Shown: piece by piece, positions 1 to 3,361 of the stretch
Position numbering within the stretch: the first letter of the stretch is position 1
Layout of the letters: each line of letters starts with the position of its first letter
Source of the DNA: a virus
Taxonomy: Duplodnaviria; Heunggongvirae; Uroviricota; Caudoviricetes
Reading direction: 5' to 3' (one strand)
Length of the DNA stretch: 3,361 nucleotides
Virus record (IMG/VR): IMGVR_UViG_2703718871_000023
Position numbers and translations under genes: made by a program
The notes under the pieces: generated by a model
Databases searched by the model: none
Told to the model about the DNA's origin: nothing
What the model saw: the letters and a program-made list of their open reading frames with translations, nothing else

Positions 1-79
1 TTATTTTTTTTGTTTATTGCTTACCTATTTTCTCTCATAAAAAATGCTCTCGAACGATAACGAACGAGGGCGTTTTTAT

Positions 80-304
80 ATGAACCAACTCAAACAATCG
101 CAATCACTATCAGATCGCGTAATCCGTGAGGATGAATGCCGTAAGTTAACTGGAGTGTGCCGCACTACACGTTACGAACTGGAGAAAAAAGGGCGCTTTC
201 CGTCACGTCTTAATCTGGGCGGTCGTTCTGTAGGGTGGCTGCTGTCCGAGGTTATGGAATGGGTTAAAAGCAGGGATCGTATTAATTCAGGTAAGGCAGC
301 GTAG
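80..304 (+). CDS. alpA: AlpA-family phage regulatory protein (Vis/excisionase-like winged-HTH DNA binding protein), 74 aa
   Basis: Translation MNQLKQSQSLSDRVIREDECRKLTGVCRTTRYELEKKGRFPSRLNLGGRSVGWLLSEVMEWVKSRDRINSGKAA has the AlpA/Vis layout I recall: TG..R.T.Y helix-turn-helix, then FP...LG.RSVGW...E...W near the C-terminus, at the typical ~70 aa size. I chose ATG 80 over the ORF-track start at 44 because GAGGG (66-70) lies 9 nt upstream of 80, while ATG 44 has no Shine-Dalgarno. Family assignment is from memory, not a search. Confidence 0.85.
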   Translation: MNQLKQSQSLSDRVIREDECRKLTGVCRTTRYELEKKGRFPSRLNLGGRSVGWLLSEVMEWVKSRDRINSGKAA

Positions 305-320
305 GGGGAACATATGACAC

Positions 321-350
321 ATAAAACAAAGGCGACCTGGGGCGGTCGCC
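321..350 (-). terminator. Rho-independent terminator for the minus-strand transcript (GC-rich hairpin followed by a U-tract on the minus strand)
   Basis: Plus strand reads GGCGACC (331-337), TGGGGC (338-343), GGTCGCC (344-350): a 7-bp stem with 6 GC pairs and a 6-nt loop. On the minus strand the hairpin is followed by TTTGTTTTAT (complement of 321-330). On the plus strand it is followed by AATGGGAAAACAC with no U-tract, so it looks unidirectional. It sits about 90 nt past the stop of the minus-strand gene 442-624. Confidence 0.6.
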
Positions 351-397
351 AATGGGAAAACACTAAACATAAGCCCGAACATCATAGCGATTTGCTG

Positions 398-437
398 GCT
401 GGTGGGCAATGTGCTCAGTGTGCTGGCTTGCTGGTGG
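398..437 (+). other. Two tandem Chi octamers (5'-GCTGGTGG-3') in non-coding DNA, embedded in an imperfect direct repeat
   Basis: Exact GCTGGTGG at 398-405 and 430-437, same orientation, 32 bp apart, inside the repeat GCTGGCTGGTGG (394-405) / GCTGGCTTGCTGGTGG (422-437). They lie between the stop of the minus gene (442) and its terminator. Whether they act as Chi sites depends on the host being E. coli-like. Confidence 0.5.
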
Positions 438-441
438 ACTA

Positions 442-624
442 TCAGCCTTTTGGTTCTATGCCTTCTTTGCGTAGCTTGTCACGACAGGCATTTTTAACCC
501 ATGAACTGAAATTACCAGGCCCAGCAACTTCGTTAATTTGTTGCAACAATGTGTCTTCGAAGCGGATGTTTTTCTTTGTGCTGCCAGAGCGATCAAATTT
601 TGGTTTCTCATTTTTTTCTTGCAT
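442..624 (-). CDS. Small basic YlcI/YnfO-like (DUF3950-like) protein, 60 aa; possible small DNA-binding regulator
   Basis: Translation MQEKNEKPKFDRSGSTKKNIRFEDTLLQQINEVAGPGNFSSWVKNACRDKLRKEGIEPKG is protein-like and matches the pattern I recall for prophage YlcI/YnfO proteins (basic N-terminus, KNIRF...I, then G.GNFS.WV..ACR..L). An in-frame TAA lies 5 codons upstream of the single ATG. It has its own terminator (321-350). The RBS is weak (GGTGG about 9 nt upstream). The overlapping plus-strand frame translates to low-complexity sequence. Family name is from memory. Confidence 0.65.
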   Translation of the reverse strand: MQEKNEKPKFDRSGSTKKNIRFEDTLLQQINEVAGPGNFSSWVKNACRDKLRKEGIEPKG

Positions 625-646
625 TGGTACGTACCACCGTTATAAA
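619..646 (+). promoter_or_regulatory. Candidate sigma70-type promoter for the rightward operon (-35 TTGCAT, 16-bp spacer, -10 TATAAA)
   Basis: TTGCAT at 619-624 and TATAAA at 641-646 with a 16-bp spacer that is filled by palindrome copy 1. The predicted start near 653 would put palindrome copy 2 just downstream. The -35 match is weak and this is a by-eye call only. Confidence 0.3.
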
Positions 647-670
647 CTGAAACCCAATGGTACGTACCAT
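625..670. promoter_or_regulatory. Pair of identical perfect palindromes TGGTACGTACCA; candidate operator sites between the divergent minus gene and the plus-strand operon
   Basis: TGGTACGTACCA at 625-636 and 658-669, each its own reverse complement. The second extends to a 14-bp perfect palindrome ATGGTACGTACCAT (657-670). Centres are 33 bp apart. Copy 1 abuts the start codon of the minus gene and lies in the spacer of a candidate rightward promoter. The motif is directly observed; the operator role is inference. Confidence 0.55.
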
Positions 671-769
671 ATTGAAGATACGCAACCATTAAATACAGCG
701 AAGCCCCGCAGTGGTGGAACACTCGCAGGGCTTCTAACCACCAACGATAGCAACAGTATCGAGGTAGCT

Positions 770-970
770 ATGAGAAATCATACCACACACCCGCAAGGGC
801 GGGACTTGCACAACCTGAATAAATTCACCTGGCGTTTTATCGCCCTGAGCACGGCACAACCGCGCGTGATTACCATTGAGGCCACCAGCGAACAGGAAGC
901 ACGCCAGCAATCCCCGGCTGGCTGCGTGATGCTATTCGCTGCCCGTATTCGCCAGGGGGTAGGCTTATGA
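770..970 (+). CDS. Small protein, 66 aa, first gene of the operon; possibly Icd-like host cell division inhibitor family (tentative)
   Basis: ATG 770 is preceded by GAGGT (761-765). The stop TGA 968-970 overlaps the next start ATG 967-969 (ATGA coupling). Translation MRNHTTHPQGRDLHNLNKFTWRFIALSTAQPRVITIEATSEQEARQQSPAGCVMLFAARIRQGVGL recalls Icd-like proteins of P4-like prophages (F.WRF.A ... E.EAR ... FAAR), from memory and unverified. The ORF track reports this frame open from 314, but the upstream part looks non-coding. Confidence 0.5.
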   Translation: MRNHTTHPQGRDLHNLNKFTWRFIALSTAQPRVITIEATSEQEARQQSPAGCVMLFAARIRQGVGL

Positions 971-1200
971 GCCAGGAAATCACACTACAACAGGCAGCAG
1001 AACGCGCCCACCAAATCGAAGTTATTTGCGCACTGGCAGAGGATTACCCTGGCATGATGACCGACAGCGAATCAGGGGCAATCATCGGCTTACTTAAACG
1101 CCTTAGCGGTGAGGTCTGCGTATTCCTGAGCGATGAACAGGAAAGAAGAACGCTTATTTCTAACGAAAAAAAATGCGGAGGGGTACACCATGTGCAATAA
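967..1200 (+). CDS. Hypothetical small acidic protein, 77 aa
   Basis: ATG 967 has GGGGG (955-959) 7 nt upstream. It is start/stop coupled to the ORF before it (ATGA) and overlaps the next gene by 11 nt. Translation MSQEITLQQAAERAHQIEVICALAEDYPGMMTDSESGAIIGLLKRLSGEVCVFLSDEQERRTLISNEKKCGGVHHVQ. No family recognised. It carries an A8 tract (1166-1173) near its 3' end. Confidence 0.5.
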   Translation: MSQEITLQQAAERAHQIEVICALAEDYPGMMTDSESGAIIGLLKRLSGEVCVFLSDEQERRTLISNEKKCGGVHHVQ

Positions 1201-1411
1201 CATCCGTCCGGACGCAGCCGCCGCCGCACTCACTACGCTGATGCACGCGCTTATTGATATTGAATGCACGGCAGAGCTTGCACAAAAGGAAGAACGGGAG
1301 GAATACACATTGTTCGCCCTGGAATGTATCCGATACACCGCCACGCGGTCGCTGAATGACGCTAAAAATATTCTTGTTGCAGATTGTGAAAATGGGGGGG
1401 GTTATGCGTGA
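1190..1411 (+). CDS. Hypothetical small protein, 73 aa
   Basis: ATG 1190 has a strong Shine-Dalgarno GGAGGGG (1177-1183) 6 nt upstream. The ORF-track start at 1133 has no RBS and would overlap the upstream gene by 68 nt. Translation MCNNIRPDAAAAALTTLMHALIDIECTAELAQKEEREEYTLFALECIRYTATRSLNDAKNILVADCENGGGYA. No family recognised. A G8 tract (1394-1401) sits at its 3' end. Confidence 0.5.
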   Translation: MCNNIRPDAAAAALTTLMHALIDIECTAELAQKEEREEYTLFALECIRYTATRSLNDAKNILVADCENGGGYA

Positions 1412-1637
1412 TGATCGTTTTAATTCCCTGAAACAAGAATTTTCCGGCGTTCCTGATGATGCGGCTGATGCGCTTTCGTCAATGCCAGAACTTATTAGAG
1501 CGGCTTTTTTCTTACTTTCCACGAGAGAATATAAATCAACGGGGCTTGATGTACTGAATATCGCCGCCGATTATGCGGAATATGTGGCAGAGGCGCGTTA
1601 CAGAAGAAAATTTCCTGAGGATGTAAGCCATGCGTGA
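1404..1637 (+). CDS. Hypothetical small protein, 77 aa
   Basis: ATG 1404 lies just after the G-run 1394-1401, which can act as a Shine-Dalgarno, and overlaps the upstream stop by 8 nt (ATGCGTGA). In-frame ATG 1392 is an alternative start. Translation MRDDRFNSLKQEFSGVPDDAADALSSMPELIRAAFFLLSTREYKSTGLDVLNIAADYAEYVAEARYRRKFPEDVSHA. No family recognised. Confidence 0.5.
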   Translation: MRDDRFNSLKQEFSGVPDDAADALSSMPELIRAAFFLLSTREYKSTGLDVLNIAADYAEYVAEARYRRKFPEDVSHA

Positions 1638-1863
1638 TATTTACCACGAAACAACAGAACGCGTATTTCTTGCACTTTCTCACAGTGAAAACATGCTGGA
1701 AATATTGCGCATATGGCTTGAAACACTTGGCGACAATGAACGCGACAAACAAAAATCAAGAATTGTCACGGCATTAATAACGCTTCTTGAGCCTGTAATA
1801 ATGGAACTACAAGAAATAGAGACATTGCACGACAGATATAACGAACAGCACACCGGAGAATAA
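1630..1863 (+). CDS. Hypothetical small protein, 77 aa
   Basis: ATG 1630 overlaps the upstream stop with the same ATGCGTGA junction seen at 1404. GAGGA (1616-1620) lies upstream. Translation MRDIYHETTERVFLALSHSENMLEILRIWLETLGDNERDKQKSRIVTALITLLEPVIMELQEIETLHDRYNEQHTGE, predicted mostly helical. No family recognised. Confidence 0.55.
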   Translation: MRDIYHETTERVFLALSHSENMLEILRIWLETLGDNERDKQKSRIVTALITLLEPVIMELQEIETLHDRYNEQHTGE

Positions 1864-1868
1864 AAATA

Positions 1869-2168
1869 ATGAAACTTAAATATTCTGGCTTAACTGCCAG
1901 TGGCAACACTCACCCTAAATTTACGCGCGGTGATATTTACCGCGACCAGTACGGCGGTACGGTAATGATTAAGGGCGTGGCGGGACGGTGCGTAACTTAC
2001 CGCCGTGAAGGTTACGAATATGATTGCGTGATGCCTGTTTATCAGTTCCGGCGTGATTTTTCTCTGGTACAGACCGCGCCGCATAACGTGCCCACCAGCA
2101 GGGAGAAAGCACGCGCCAATATTCAGAAGATGAAAAACATGATTAACGGATTCAGGGGCAAGAAATGA
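1869..2168 (+). CDS. Small protein, 99 aa, possibly DUF4222-like (tentative)
   Basis: ATG 1869 with GGAG (1855-1858) upstream. Its stop TGA 2166-2168 overlaps the ATPase start ATG 2165-2167. Translation MKLKYSGLTASGNTHPKFTRGDIYRDQYGGTVMIKGVAGRCVTYRREGYEYDCVMPVYQFRRDFSLVQTAPHNVPTSREKARANIQKMKNMINGFRGKK. The core (YRD...G.V.I.GV.GR.V.Y.R.GYE..CV.P...F) resembles what I recall of enterobacterial prophage DUF4222 proteins; unverified. Confidence 0.6.
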   Translation: MKLKYSGLTASGNTHPKFTRGDIYRDQYGGTVMIKGVAGRCVTYRREGYEYDCVMPVYQFRRDFSLVQTAPHNVPTSREKARANIQKMKNMINGFRGKK

Positions 2169-3361
2169 AAAGCGCACCGAACTTAAAAAAACAGCCTTAC
2201 GACAAGATGACCGAAGTCATCATTTTTGCGGGTAGTGATGCGTGGGCACATGCGAAACAGTGGCAGGAACAGGACGGGCGACTGGCTGGCGATAATGTGC
2301 CTCCCATTGTGCTGGCTGATGATCAACTGGATGAACTGGCAGACCTGAGAATCATCGACGAGGGGCGCTATTGTGTCCGGCTGTACAAGGCAGGCCACAT
2401 CAGGCCATCAAATATTAATGCCATTGCGCACAAGCTGGCGGCGGCGGGCGTAACTGATGCGAATTATTACCCCGAAGGGATACACAGCCAGAAGCGGGAG
2501 AACTGGCGCGAATATCTGGAACGGGAGCGGGGGAAAAAGCCAGGGGAAGAACACCACCAGCGAAAAACCACGCTACCGATGAGCGTTGGATCTGCCGGAT
2601 ACGACACGCAATTAGATTACGTGGTAAAGGGGATTATTCCGGCATCGTCGCTTTGCAGCATATACGGGGCGAGCGGTTCCTATAAATCATTCCTTGCGGG
2701 TTCGTGGGCGTGTCACGTTTCCACGGGCCGCCAGTGGGGAGGCCGCAGGGTGGCGCATGGCGCTGTTCTCTATGTGGTTGGTGAAGGCGGTATCGGCGTT
2801 CCGCGTCGTGTAAAAGCCTGGGAGGTTGTGCACGGTGAGCAGGTGAAAAATCTGTATCTGGTAAACCGTCCCATCTTTCCGGCGGTCCCGCTTGATGTTG
2901 ATGAAATGGTTATCGCTGCCCGTCAGGTGGAGCGGGAAACGGGTAAACCTGTACGCATGATTATTCTGGATACGCTGGCGCGTTGCTTTGGTGGGAATGA
3001 TGAAAATGATTCCCGTGATATGGGGGCGTTTATCCGTGGTTGTGACGAACTGAAACGACGCACAGGGGCCACGGTGCTGGTGGTTCACCATTCCGGCAAG
3101 GATGAGACGAAAGGCGCGCGCGGTTCCAGTGCATTTCGTGCATCACTGGATGCTGAATACCGGATACGCAGGGAGGACGCAGGAAGCGAAGCGCTGGTTA
3201 TCTCATGCACCAAAATGAAGGACGCGGAGGAACTCAAAGAGGCTGCCTATGATTTGCGGGTGGTGGAGCTTTTTACCGACGCTGACGGGGAGTTAATCAC
3301 GTCGCTGGTGGTGGTGGATAAGCCGCGCCCTCCCGTTGAACTGGAGCGCATCGAGGAGGCA
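2165..3361 (+). CDS. RecA-fold replication ATPase (AAA_25 / RepA-like helicase-type domain), probable satellite replication or primase-associated protein; 3' end truncated by the window (399 codons, no stop)
   Basis: The frame is open from ATG 2165 (AGGGG 6 nt upstream) to the last base of the window, which is why the stop-delimited ORF track does not list it. Motifs: P-loop-like IYGASGSYKSFLAG (2660-2700), Walker-B-like MIILDTLA (2957-2980), and VLVVHHSGKDETKGARGSSAFRASLDAEYRIRRE, which resembles the RepA/AAA_25 sensor region. The first ~160 aa are an unassigned N-terminal region. Confidence 0.85.
   Translation, partial: MKSAPNLKKQPYDKMTEVIIFAGSDAWAHAKQWQEQDGRLAGDNVPPIVLADDQLDELADLRIIDEGRYCVRLYKAGHIRPSNINAIAHKLAAAGVTDANYYPEGIHSQKRENWREYLERERGKKPGEEHHQRKTTLPMSVGSAGYDTQLDYVVKGIIPASSLCSIYGASGSYKSFLAGSWACHVSTGRQWGGRRVAHGAVLYVVGEGGIGVPRRVKAWEVVHGEQVKNLYLVNRPIFPAVPLDVDEMVIAARQVERETGKPVRMIILDTLARCFGGNDENDSRDMGAFIRGCDELKRRTGATVLVVHHSGKDETKGARGSSAFRASLDAEYRIRREDAGSEALVISCTKMKDAEELKEAAYDLRVVELFTDADGELITSLVVVDKPRPPVELERIEEA

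What the first reader, a model, noticed from the sequence alone, without database searches (positions are those of the whole stretch)
770..2168. Tightly coupled operon of six uncharacterised small ORFs between the alpA region and the replication ATPase
Six consecutive plus-strand ORFs of 66-99 aa are linked by start/stop overlaps (ATGA at 967 and 2165, ATGCGTGA at 1404 and 1630, an 11-nt overlap at 1190), which implies co-translation as one unit. In P4 the equivalent position between vis and the replication gene carries kil, eta, epsilon and the immunity determinant, i.e. host-takeover and helper-manipulation functions. I could place only two of the six in a family, both tentatively. These are therefore candidates for undescribed helper-phage sensing, antirepressor, anti-defence or host-interference proteins. 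Three of them (967, 1404, 1630) are exactly 77 aa, which may be coincidence.
Basis: inference. Interest (0 to 1): 0.55.

Follow-up and report, generated by a model that had tools for sequence, protein, structure and literature searches.

The report
Early operon of an E. coli phage satellite
The six small genes are real and tightly linked, but they are the standard early operon of an E. coli phage satellite (PICI), not a P4 element; two belong to known families, and two others are halves of one gene split at a run of G bases whose length varies between strains.

Summary
Six + strand ORFs lie at the stated coordinates with the stated overlaps. The same junctions recur in about 85 related loci, and all six ORFs are under purifying selection.

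- The element is a PICI-type satellite of Escherichia, not a P4 relative. Its closest relatives are capsid-forming PICIs such as CP-933C/Sp7.
- ORF6 is the orthologue of RgdR (81% identity, RGD motif kept). RgdR is an experimentally studied regulator.
- ORF1 is a homologue of phage P1 Icd and overlaps the next gene by ATGA, as P1 icd does with ant1.
- ORF3 and ORF4 are two halves of one two-domain gene. A poly-G tract (G8 here) splits them, and its length varies from G7 to G11 between near-identical loci. The gene therefore appears either as a 148-aa fusion or as two proteins.
- ORF2, ORF3/4 and ORF5 are acidic, helical, found in satellites only, and have no detectable relatives of known function.

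Upstream I found three likely control elements: a promoter flanked by two palindromic operators, a divergent ribbon-helix-helix gene, and a leader hairpin supported by covariation.

This is an ordinary member of a known kind of element. The poly-G toggle and the control region appear undescribed.

The parts
80..304 (+). alpA (AlpA-family HTH regulator), the known activator of Gram-negative PICI cycles
   Evidence: Pfam Phage_AlpA 2e-16. Role of AlpA in PICIs: PMC6092414.
331..350 (-). Intrinsic-terminator-like hairpin plus T run, ending the minus-strand ylcI transcript
   Evidence: GGCGACCGCCCCAGGTCGCC followed by TTTGTTTTAT.
442..624 (-). Divergent small gene of the YlcI/YnfO family (DUF3950), read here as ribbon-helix-helix. 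Candidate repressor of the operon promoter.
   Evidence: Pfam DUF3950 5e-8 and NCBIfam NF041551 1.8e-7. Its start codon abuts operator 1. Its allele tracks the operator type across loci. The ribbon-helix-helix reading rests on sequence pattern only.
619..646 (+). Putative sigma-70 promoter of the operon: -35 TTGCAT, 16-nt spacer, -10 TATAAA
   Evidence: Read from the sequence. L085 has the same layout with consensus TTGACA-N17-TACTAT. The consensus scan did not call it. Inferred.
625..636 (.). Operator copy 1, palindrome TGGTACGTACCA, inside the promoter spacer
658..669 (.). Operator copy 2, identical palindrome, just downstream of the predicted transcription start
700..734 (+). Conserved leader hairpin, followed by the invariant sequence TCTAACCA(C/A)CAACG
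   Evidence: Present in 78 loci as 47 sequence variants. 9 of 14 pairs show compensatory double changes; 83.7% of cells are paired against 33-46% in slid controls; 0 of 500 shuffles reach the observed value. No Rfam family matches.
770..970 (+). ORF1: Icd-like protein (66 aa, pI 11.3), first gene of the operon
   Evidence: NCBIfam NF033153 2.5e-19, 69 bits against a cut-off of 25. 35% identity to P1 Icd, E 6e-6. 48% identity to ECs1577.
967..1200 (+). ORF2: acidic helical protein (77 aa, pI 5.0), optional module, function unknown
   Evidence: phrog_1478 3e-28. 52% identity to ECs1579 of Sp7. Present in about a quarter of related loci.
1190..1411 (+). ORF3: N-terminal helical-hairpin domain of the two-domain gene (73 aa here); the more variable half
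   Evidence: phrog_5146 and phrog_2512 positions 1-76. Fused to ORF4 in L001 and many others. Identity to the window across loci is 46-100%.
1394..1401 (+). Hypervariable poly-G tract (G8 here) that sets whether ORF3 and ORF4 are fused or separate. It also serves as the Shine-Dalgarno-like element of ORF4.
1404..1637 (+). ORF4: conserved C-terminal domain of the two-domain gene (77 aa), with its own ATG 2 nt after the G run
   Evidence: phrog_24341 1.8e-41 and phrog_2512 positions 78-154. C-only clusters start exactly at profile position 72.
1630..1863 (+). ORF5: acidic helical protein (77 aa, pI 4.9), function unknown
   Evidence: phrog_2196 4.7e-38. An identical protein occurs on 676 contigs, all named 'hypothetical'. 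29% identity to ECs1580.
1869..2168 (+). ORF6: rgdR orthologue (DUF4222, 99 aa, pI 10.1), whose stop overlaps the rep start
   Evidence: Pfam DUF4222 2e-23. 81% identity over 99 aa to ECs1581, with R20-G21-D22 kept. AF2 model: SH3/Tudor-like barrel plus a C-terminal helix.
2165..3361 (+). rep (cut by the window end): conserved N-terminal domain of about 125 aa plus an AAA_25/RepA-helicase ATPase
   Evidence: Pfam AAA_25 1.5e-43. phrog_2850. PGAP name 'helicase RepA family protein'.

Best explanation
This is the early (regulation and replication) operon of an Escherichia phage-inducible chromosomal island. Its closest relatives are capsid-forming PICIs of the CP-933C/Sp7/EcCIEDL933 type.

Proposed mechanism:
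1. One polycistronic mRNA starts at a sigma-70 promoter near 619-646. Two copies of an allele-specific palindromic operator bracket that promoter, and a small divergent ribbon-helix-helix gene (YlcI/YnfO family) lies next to it. I take that gene to encode the repressor that keeps the operon quiet (inferred).
2. The mRNA carries a conserved leader hairpin at 700-734. Its role is unknown. Candidates are an attenuator that AlpA lets RNA polymerase read through, or a stabilising 5' structure (inferred).
3. Translation starts at an Icd homologue and passes from gene to gene through overlapping stop and start codons, as in the icd-ant unit of phage P1. The whole set is therefore made together with the replication initiator (anatomy shown; coupling inferred).
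4. The last small gene is rgdR, a basic Tudor/KOW-like barrel protein that binds DNA non-specifically. Its stop codon overlaps the rep start in every locus examined. I infer that its native job is tied to Rep or to transcription of the island. Its known effects on LEE and motility would then be side effects on the host.
5. The genes in between (ORF2, the ORF3/ORF4 two-domain gene, ORF5) are acidic helical proteins found only in satellites. Their most likely role is binding helper-phage or host proteins (weak inference).
6. ORF3 and ORF4 are one gene. Its flexible Gly linker is encoded by a slippage-prone G tract, so natural alleles make either a tethered protein or two separate halves.
For: Element identity:
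- The best relative (96% identity) has integrase, alpA, this operon, a RepA helicase, PerC, then HK97 capsid, protease, portal, connectors, HNH, TerS and TerL.
- Sakai Sp7 has the same layout and homologues of ORF1, ORF2, ORF5 and ORF6.
- A classical PICI carries the same alpA-ylcI-operator module.

Genes are real:
- dN/dS is 0.27-0.40.
- Junctions are conserved.

Icd:
-.
- P1 icd/ant1 overlap by 4 nt, and icd is annotated as 'required for expression of ant'.

RgdR:
-; PMC3378721.
- PMC6092414 states that RgdR is encoded by all analysed E. coli PICIs and that AlpA activates PICI genes.
- Fold.
- The rgdR/rep overlap is -4 in 85/85 loci.

Poly-G tract:
-.
- The AF2 model shows two helical hairpins joined by a disordered linker at residues 70-90.

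Control region:
-.

Satellite-specific:
- Almost no tblastn hits among 50,697 phage records for ORF1, ORF5 and ORF6.
Against: - There is no expression or binding data for this locus. The promoter, the repressor assignment and the role of the hairpin are inferred from anatomy and co-variation.
- The operators and the ribbon-helix-helix gene are adjacent, so their co-inheritance is partly expected from linkage alone.
- The hairpin has no U tract on the + strand, so it is not a canonical terminator.
- RgdR has a phenotype in uninduced EHEC (PMC3378721), so at least rgdR is expressed without island induction. That fits poorly with a tightly repressed operon and may mean an internal promoter exists.
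- The window stops inside rep, so whether this particular island forms its own capsids cannot be seen.
- Nothing indicates what ORF2, ORF3/4 and ORF5 bind. The AF2 model of ORF3-4 is weak (pLDDT 60) and its fold matches are generic helical bundles.
Confidence: 0.85

Rival explanations
1. One reading: a P4-like satellite in which these ORFs are the counterparts of kil, eta, epsilon and the immunity determinant.
For: - The position between an AlpA/Vis-like gene and the replication gene is the same.
- Icd-like genes also occur in P4-like elements (PMC13612085).
- PGAP places 'ash family protein' and Icd-like pseudogene calls in the leader of related islands.
- One related island (L085) carries isrK plus C4 antisense RNA upstream of its Icd-like gene.
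Against: - Relatives carry PICI or cf-PICI gene sets, with no sid/psu/delta.
- No C4/CI RNA is found in the window at E up to 1.
- Megablast of the window and tblastn of ORF1, ORF5 and ORF6 against a phage collection expected to include P4 (not verified) find nothing P4-like.
- PMC6092414 reports that only AlpA, Pri-Rep and Int are distantly shared between PICIs and P4.
Confidence: 0.04
2. The ORF3/ORF4 split is damage or error: a frameshifted pseudogene, or a homopolymer sequencing mistake, in what should be one 148-aa gene.
For: - PGAP labels one G9 allele 'frameshifted'.
- The fused form is common and defines phrog_2512.
- Homopolymers are error-prone in some sequencing chemistries.
Against: - G8 is the commonest state in 53 metagenome contigs (27/53) and the second commonest in 71 IMG/VR loci (21/71).
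- G7, G8 and G9 all occur in complete genomes, including Nissle 1917, 042, O26 11368 and TW14359.
- ORF4 keeps its own ATG 2 nt after the run in every allele.
- Both halves show purifying selection.
- Interrupted runs (GGGGTGGG, GGGGGTGG) fix the split state, and G4 fixes the fused state.
- N-only and C-only clusters exist separately.
Confidence: 0.1
3. The poly-G tract is an adaptive switch (phase variation) that changes function between a tethered two-domain protein and two free proteins. The alternative is a tolerated, neutral hypermutable linker.
For: - Tract length differs between loci with identical 660-nt flanks. It is essentially randomised at 1% divergence or less: 20% of pairs share a length and 31% share a frame.
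- The run and its flanks are kept across alleles that are otherwise only about 82% identical.
- Poly-G phase variation occurs in Enterobacteriaceae (Klebsiella rmpA, bioRxiv 10.1101/2025.09.12.675794).
- C-terminal switching by repeats is known (PMC2823697).
Against: - All three frames are common and none abolishes either half, so no on/off phenotype is evident.
- The G run may be kept simply because it doubles as ORF4's ribosome-binding site and encodes a Gly linker.
- Stable interrupted alleles exist in both states.
Confidence: 0.3
4. ORF2, ORF3/4 and ORF5 are anti-repressors, anti-defence proteins or helper-phage interference proteins.
For: - In P1 the gene coupled to icd is the antirepressor ant.
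- Enterobacter PICIs carry Ant/BRO/Rha genes (PMC13612085).
- The proteins are small, acidic (pI 4.5-5.0), helical and satellite-specific.
- ORF3 is highly variable next to a conserved ORF4, as expected of a target-recognition module.
Against: - There are no hits in PADLOC, Pfam or NCBIfam and no PDB sequence relatives.
- Fold matches are uninformative.
- In PICIs, known interference genes lie downstream of rep.
Confidence: 0.25

Closest known systems
Capsid-forming PICI EcCIEDL933 (= CP-933C / O-island 51 of EDL933; Sp7 of Sakai)
   Same: The order is the same: int, alpA, leader, Icd-like, small ORFs, rgdR, rep. ORF1, ORF2, ORF5 and ORF6 have homologues there at 48%, 52%, 29% and 81% identity. 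The N-terminal domain of rep is 68% identical. The leader hairpin is the same.
   Different: Sp7 has no ORF3/ORF4 gene and carries ECs1578 in that place. Its rep C-terminus is a primase type rather than an AAA_25/RepA helicase. Its leader has a different operator type.
Phage P1 immI unit (c4 - icd - ant1/ant2)
   Same: A homologous Icd protein is the first ORF and overlaps the next gene by ATGA. A related island (L085) even has C4 and isrK RNAs ahead of its Icd-like gene.
   Different: The window has no C4 RNA. Control appears to be protein and operator based. The downstream genes are not Ant homologues, and the operon runs on into a replication initiator.
RgdR (ECs1581), a prophage-encoded regulator of LEE/T3SS and motility in EHEC
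   Same: 99 aa, 81% identical, DUF4222 domain, RGD motif at residues 20-22, and the same position directly upstream of rep.
   Different: Activity was not tested for this allele. The host strain may lack LEE. I propose a native role in the island's own cycle, which the RgdR papers did not address.
P4 left operon (kil, eta, cI RNA, epsilon, alpha)
   Same: A satellite operon of small genes ahead of the replication gene, downstream of a Vis/AlpA-like gene.
   Different: No sequence relationship was found for ORF1, ORF5 or ORF6 by tblastn, or for the whole window by megablast. There is no CI RNA, and the relatives have a different morphogenesis strategy.
Pseudomonas aeruginosa AlpA, a Q-like antiterminator
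   Same: An AlpA-family protein lies upstream. A binding element lies in the promoter spacer and a structured element lies a few tens of nt downstream of the start (PMC7969949, PMC9371919).
   Different: Here the operators track the neighbouring ribbon-helix-helix gene, not the AlpA allele. The hairpin lacks a U tract. Antitermination by PICI AlpA is untested.

Membership tests
Gram-negative PICI / cf-PICI (Fillol-Salom 2018; Alqurainy 2022 preprint) | int - alpA - small ORFs - pri/rep in one orientation, in an island of about 10-16 kb | tested here: met
   alpA and rep lie in the window. Relatives show int upstream and island sizes of about 10-15 kb.
Gram-negative PICI / cf-PICI (Fillol-Salom 2018; Alqurainy 2022 preprint) | Own HK97-type capsid, portal and terminase module (cf-PICI) or its absence (classical PICI) | not testable with these tools
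   The window ends inside rep. The closest relative over 699-3361 is a cf-PICI. The closest over 1-770 is a classical PICI.
Gram-negative PICI / cf-PICI (Fillol-Salom 2018; Alqurainy 2022 preprint) | Induction by a helper phage through AlpA, and transfer at high frequency | not testable with these tools
   This needs an experiment.
Icd-like proteins (NCBIfam NF033153) | Score above the curated cut-off, and similarity to P1 Icd | tested here: met
   69 bits against a cut-off of 25. BLASTP against P1 Icd gives E 6e-6. P1 Icd itself scores 52.6 bits.
Icd-like proteins (NCBIfam NF033153) | Inhibits host cell division | not testable with these tools
RgdR / DUF4222 | DUF4222 domain above the gathering score | tested here: met
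   82.1 bits against a cut-off of 27.
RgdR / DUF4222 | RGD motif (R20 is needed for activity; the R20C variant is inactive) | tested here: met
   The sequence reads KFT-R20-G21-D22-IYRD. The requirement comes from PMC3378721 and PMC10877973.
RgdR / DUF4222 | Activates LEE1 and represses motility | not testable with these tools
   This needs an experiment.
P4-like satellites | CI/C4-type immunity RNA in the leader | tested here: not met
   No Rfam C4 match in the window at E up to 1. The model does detect C4 in L085.
P4-like satellites | sid, psu, delta and epsilon genes | tested here: not met
   These genes are absent from the full islands of the closest relatives. The window itself does not reach that region.
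Simple-sequence-repeat phase-variable genes | Homopolymer inside or next to a coding region, whose length differs between otherwise identical sequences | tested here: met
   G7 to G11 are observed, and loci with identical 660-nt flanks have different tracts.
Simple-sequence-repeat phase-variable genes | Reversible, high-frequency switching within a clone, with a phenotype | not testable with these tools
   This needs deep sequencing of single strains and isogenic alleles.

The most novel reading that the evidence does not exclude
Two features of this operon could be new biology.

1. The hypervariable poly-G tract may be a real switch. By slippage, it would convert a satellite protein between a tethered form (variable N domain plus conserved C domain) and two free proteins. 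That could diversify how the island deals with different helper phages within a clonal population.

2. The divergent YlcI/YnfO-family ribbon-helix-helix gene, with its paired allele-specific operators, may be the master repressor of Gram-negative PICIs. PMC6092414 describes the existence of such a repressor as unclear. The covarying leader hairpin would be a second checkpoint in that control.
Probability: 0.2. Interest if true: 0.7.

Novelty: new member of a known kind. Interest (0 to 1): 0.4.

Why it matters
Part of this window matches DNA in about a third of complete E. coli genomes. The module occurs in EHEC, UPEC and the probiotic Nissle 1917. It drives replication of islands that spread virulence regulators such as RgdR and PerC and that interfere with phages. 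Three of its genes still have no function, so it is a compact and very common target for satellite-helper biology.

If the ribbon-helix-helix gene and its operators prove to be the missing repressor, the question of how helper phages induce Gram-negative PICIs becomes directly testable. If the poly-G tract is a functional switch, it would be a rare case of repeat-driven protein-architecture switching in E. coli and in a phage satellite.

As it stands, the finding mainly re-labels an ordinary, already mapped PICI operon.

Tried and rejected
- **Rfam scan of the window**: only chance-level hits. There is no C4 or isrK, although both are found in L085.
- **PADLOC**: nothing for any of the six ORFs.
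- **Pfam and NCBIfam for ORF2-5**: nothing above noise.
- **PDB sequence profile searches for RgdR and ORF3-4**: no hits even at E = 10.
- **Paralogy among the 77-aa ORFs**: rejected.
- **The A8 run near the end of ORF2 as a second variable tract**: rejected. It is A8 in 18 of 19 loci; the one A7 allele fuses ORF2 to ORF3.
- **AlpA as the operator-binding protein**: disfavoured, because one AlpA cluster occurs with ten or more operator types.
- **The 218-aa ORF at 314-970, in frame with ORF1**: rejected as a gene. It runs through a minus-strand terminator and antisense to ylcI, and PGAP treats its counterparts as pseudogene fragments.
- **Genome-contig scan with the RgdR alignment**: only Shigella flexneri and E. 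albertii. The search patterns were too narrow to map the wider DUF4222 distribution.
- **Promoter and terminator scan**: counts equal the shuffled expectation. The operon promoter I propose fell below the scan's threshold.
Full report
**1. Observation**

The six + strand ORFs exist exactly as described:

| ORF | Coordinates | Length |
|---|---|---|
| ORF1 | 770-970 | 66 aa |
| ORF2 | 967-1200 | 77 aa |
| ORF3 | 1190-1411 | 73 aa |
| ORF4 | 1404-1637 | 77 aa |
| ORF5 | 1630-1863 | 77 aa |
| ORF6 | 1869-2168 | 99 aa |

The replication gene follows from 2165. The junctions are overlaps of 4, 11, 8 and 8 nt, then a 5-nt gap, then an overlap of 4 nt. Each start has a G-rich Shine-Dalgarno-like motif upstream.

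This is not a chance arrangement. In about 85 related loci, fetched from IMG/VR, complete E. coli genomes and other collections, the same junctions recur:
- ORF6/rep: -4 in 85/85
- ORF5/ORF6: +5 in 76/78
- ORF1/ORF2: -4 in 19/21
- ORF2/ORF3: -11 in 19/21
- ORF4/ORF5: -8 in 55 and +1 in 19

All six ORFs show purifying selection, with median pairwise dN/dS of 0.27-0.40. The rep ATPase domain gives 0.08. Part of the window matches DNA in 1847 of 5426 complete E. coli genomes.

**2. What the element is**

The best match is 96% identical over 699-3361. It lies in an island with integrase, an alpA-type HTH gene, a minus-strand YlcI/YnfO gene, an Icd-like gene, hypothetical genes, a DUF4222 gene, a RepA-family helicase and PerC. 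These are followed by an HK97-type major capsid protein, prohead protease, portal, head closure and connector proteins, HNH, TerS and TerL.

That is the gene set of a capsid-forming PICI (bioRxiv 10.1101/2022.09.08.507074). The prototype, CP-933C / O-island 51 / Sakai Sp7, has the same layout. The left part of the window (1-770) is 97% identical to a classical PICI-like island of about 10 kb in strain A34. That island carries int, alpA, YlcI, Icd-like, three hypothetical genes, DUF4222, primase, SSB, ProQ and PerC.

The module is therefore shared by both PICI types. Because the window stops inside rep, I cannot say which type this island is.

It is not P4-like:
- No relative carries sid, psu or delta.
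- Megablast of the whole window against 50,697 phage records finds nothing.
- tblastn with ORF1, ORF5 and ORF6 finds only two small 'phages' of 8.6 and 16.5 kb, which look like satellites themselves.
- Fillol-Salom et al. state that only AlpA, Pri-Rep and Int are distantly shared between PICIs and P4 (PMC6092414).

**3. The individual genes**

*ORF1* belongs to NCBIfam NF033153, 'host cell division inhibitor Icd-like' (69 bits against a cut-off of 25). It aligns with P1 Icd itself at 35% identity over 43 residues, E 6e-6. P1 Icd hits the same model. In P1, icd overlaps ant1 by 4 nt and is annotated as required for ant expression. ORF1 and ORF2 have the same ATGA overlap.

*ORF6* carries DUF4222 (2e-23) and is 81% identical over all 99 residues to ECs1581. 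ECs1581 is RgdR, which activates LEE1 and type III secretion, represses motility and binds DNA without specificity. It needs R20 of its RGD motif (PMC3378721, PMC10877973). The window keeps R20-G21-D22. PMC6092414 notes that RgdR is encoded by all analysed E. coli PICIs.

*ORF2, ORF3, ORF4 and ORF5* match PHROG families of unknown function. They have no Pfam, NCBIfam or PADLOC assignment. They are acidic, with pI 4.5-5.0, whereas ORF1 and ORF6 have pI 11.3 and 10.1. ORF2 and ORF5 have homologues in Sp7 at 52% and 29% identity; ORF3 and ORF4 do not. A protein identical to ORF5 occurs on 676 contigs, always named hypothetical. The ORF families are unrelated to each other (hhalign probability at most 1%), so the three 77-aa lengths are coincidence.

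**4. ORF3 and ORF4 are one gene with a variable poly-G hinge**

The closest relative has G7 where the window has G8 (1394-1401). There, ORF3 and ORF4 form one 148-aa gene. phrog_2512 (154 aa) covers both halves.

The flanks CTGATTGTGAAAAT and TTATGCGTGATGATCG are invariant, but the tract length varies:

| Sample | n | G7 | G8 | G9 | G10 | G11 | G4 | Other or interrupted |
|---|---|---|---|---|---|---|---|---|
| IMG/VR and related loci | 71 | 24 | 21 | 12 | 4 | 2 | 3 | 5 |
| Metagenome contigs | 53 | 10 | 27 | 12 | 1 | 0 | 0 | 3 |

Complete genomes also differ: Nissle 1917 has G8, 042 has G9, O26:H11 11368 has G9, O157:H7 TW14359 has G7, and RM9131 has G9, which PGAP annotates as 'frameshifted'.

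Changing only the tract length in the window sequence gives the following products:
- G4, G7 or G10: a 147-149-aa fusion with a GG(G)V linker
- G8 or G11: a 73/74-aa ORF3 ending ...GGGYA
- G9: an 80-aa ORF3 that overlaps ORF4 by 28 nt

ORF4's own ATG sits 2 nt after the run in every allele, so the C-terminal half can be made in all states.

Tract length changes much faster than point substitutions accumulate. Loci with identical 660-nt flanks differ (the window has G8 and L040 has G9; L019 and L020 have G7 and L076 has G9). Among pairs with an identical ORF4, only 56% share a tract length. At 1% divergence or less, only 20% share a length and 31% share a frame, which is close to random.

The AF2 model of a fused form is weak (pLDDT 60). 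It shows two helical hairpins joined by a disordered segment at residues 70-90. An exhaustive HMMER search finds only 56 clusters among 1.84 billion representatives. These fall into fused, N-only and C-only forms, and the C-only forms start exactly at the Met after the tract.

I conclude that the split seen in the window is a common natural state, not an error. Whether the variation is adaptive or merely tolerated is open. A full-text search found no paper that links PICIs with homopolymeric tracts.

**5. Control region (outside the stated coordinates, but needed for the mechanism)**

Between alpA (ends at 304) and ORF1 lie the following features:
- A minus-strand terminator at 350-331.
- A minus-strand YlcI/YnfO-family gene at 624-442. 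Its sequence pattern suggests a ribbon-helix-helix fold (my reading).
- Two identical 12-bp palindromes, TGGTACGTACCA, at 625-636 and 658-669.
- A plausible sigma-70 promoter, TTGCAT-N16-TATAAA, at 619-646 with the first palindrome in its spacer.
- A hairpin at 700-734.

Locus L085 has the same layout, with consensus hexamers and the palindrome TGGTAATTACC.

Across loci the paired palindromes come in many types. Each type goes with one cluster of the divergent small gene, while a single AlpA cluster occurs with ten or more types. This favours the divergent protein as the operator-binding repressor. Physical adjacency contributes to the association, so this is not proof.

The hairpin occurs in 78 loci as 47 variants, including Sp7. 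It is well supported by covariation: 9 of 14 pairs show compensatory double changes, 83.7% of cells are paired against 33-46% in slid controls, and 0 of 500 shuffles reach the observed value. It matches no Rfam family and has no U tract on the + strand.

Pseudomonas AlpA is a Q-like antiterminator. It loads at a site in the promoter spacer and reads through a terminator a few tens of bp downstream (PMC7969949, PMC9371919). A similar role for PICI AlpA at this hairpin is an idea, not a result.

In L085 the leader additionally carries isrK (66 bits) and C4 antisense RNA (77.6 bits) ahead of a second Icd-like gene. This ties the module historically to the P1 immI design.

**6. How it most likely works**

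*Shown:* the anatomy; the homology of ORF1 to Icd and of ORF6 to RgdR; the conservation of the junctions; the tract variability; and the hairpin covariation.

*From the literature:* AlpA, whose expression is switched on by a helper phage, activates PICI genes (PMC6092414).

*Inferred:*
- One mRNA starts near 650 and is held off by the ribbon-helix-helix protein at two operators.
- Translation begins at the Icd homologue and is passed along by the overlapping stops and starts, so that RgdR and Rep are made only when the upstream ORFs are translated.
- RgdR works with Rep or with transcription of the island.
- The acidic proteins bind helper or host proteins.

*A point against tight repression:* rgdR deletion has a phenotype in uninduced EHEC (PMC3378721). 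An internal promoter-like site at 1774-1802 is a candidate explanation, but it is not significant on its own.

**7. Verdict**

The finding is a correct description of a real, conserved operon, but in the wrong frame. It is the ordinary early operon of a PICI. One gene has been characterised (rgdR), one belongs to a named family (Icd-like), and the count of six depends on a variable tract.

The poly-G hinge, the operator and ribbon-helix-helix cassette, and the covarying leader hairpin appear undescribed in the papers I could search. They are the most useful leads.

Noticed in passing
window 1394-1401: Poly-G tract (G8) at the ORF3/ORF4 junction. Its length varies from G7 to G11 between near-identical loci, which toggles the gene between a 148-aa fusion and two separate proteins. 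Interrupted alleles and G4 alleles fix one state or the other.
   Followed up: yes
window 700-734 (plus the invariant TCTAACCACCAACG at 733-746): Conserved leader hairpin about 35 nt upstream of ORF1, with strong covariation (9 of 14 pairs compensatory) across 47 variants. It is not in Rfam, has no U tract, and its function is unknown.
   Followed up: partly
window 619-669: Putative promoter TTGCAT-N16-TATAAA, with two copies of the palindrome TGGTACGTACCA: one in the spacer and one just after the predicted start. Other islands have different paired palindromes at the same place.
   Followed up: partly
window 442-624 (minus strand): YlcI/YnfO (DUF3950) gene divergent from the operon, ending at a minus-strand terminator (350-331). 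Its allele tracks the operator type and AlpA's does not. It is a candidate for the PICI repressor whose existence PMC6092414 calls unclear.
   Followed up: partly
window 314-970: A 218-aa ORF in frame with ORF1 stays open across the terminator and antisense to ylcI. Similar long ORFs (up to about 480 aa) occur in related loci, and PGAP calls them 'Icd-like' or 'ash family' pseudogenes. They are probably spurious, but why they stay open is unexplained.
   Followed up: partly
L085 1062-1247 (E. coli O26:H11 11368): A related island carries isrK (RF01394) and C4 antisense RNA (RF01695) between a truncated first Icd-like ORF and a second Icd-like gene. PICI leaders therefore come in RNA-controlled and protein-only versions.
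   Followed up: partly
window 2165-2539 and related loci: The N-terminal domain of rep (about 125 aa) is conserved and always follows rgdR. The C-terminal part is swapped between an AAA_25/RepA helicase and P4-type primase modules.
   Followed up: partly
window 1165-1172: An A8 run near the end of ORF2. One related locus (L029) has A7, which fuses ORF2 to ORF3. Proteins of 220-221 aa in the database (for example P0008, on 52 contigs) may be ORF2-ORF3-ORF4 triple fusions.
   Followed up: partly
window 1774-1802: Promoter-like site (TTAATA-N17-AATAAT with an upstream TG) inside the AT-rich ORF5, about 70 nt before rgdR. It could explain rgdR expression in uninduced cells. It is not significant by the scan's own control.
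   Followed up: no
window 1404-1412 and 1630-1638: ORF4 and ORF5 both begin ATGCGTGAT (MRD), with the upstream stop inside the same octamer. Given the ATG...TGA constraint, only about three free positions match, so this is probably chance.
   Followed up: no
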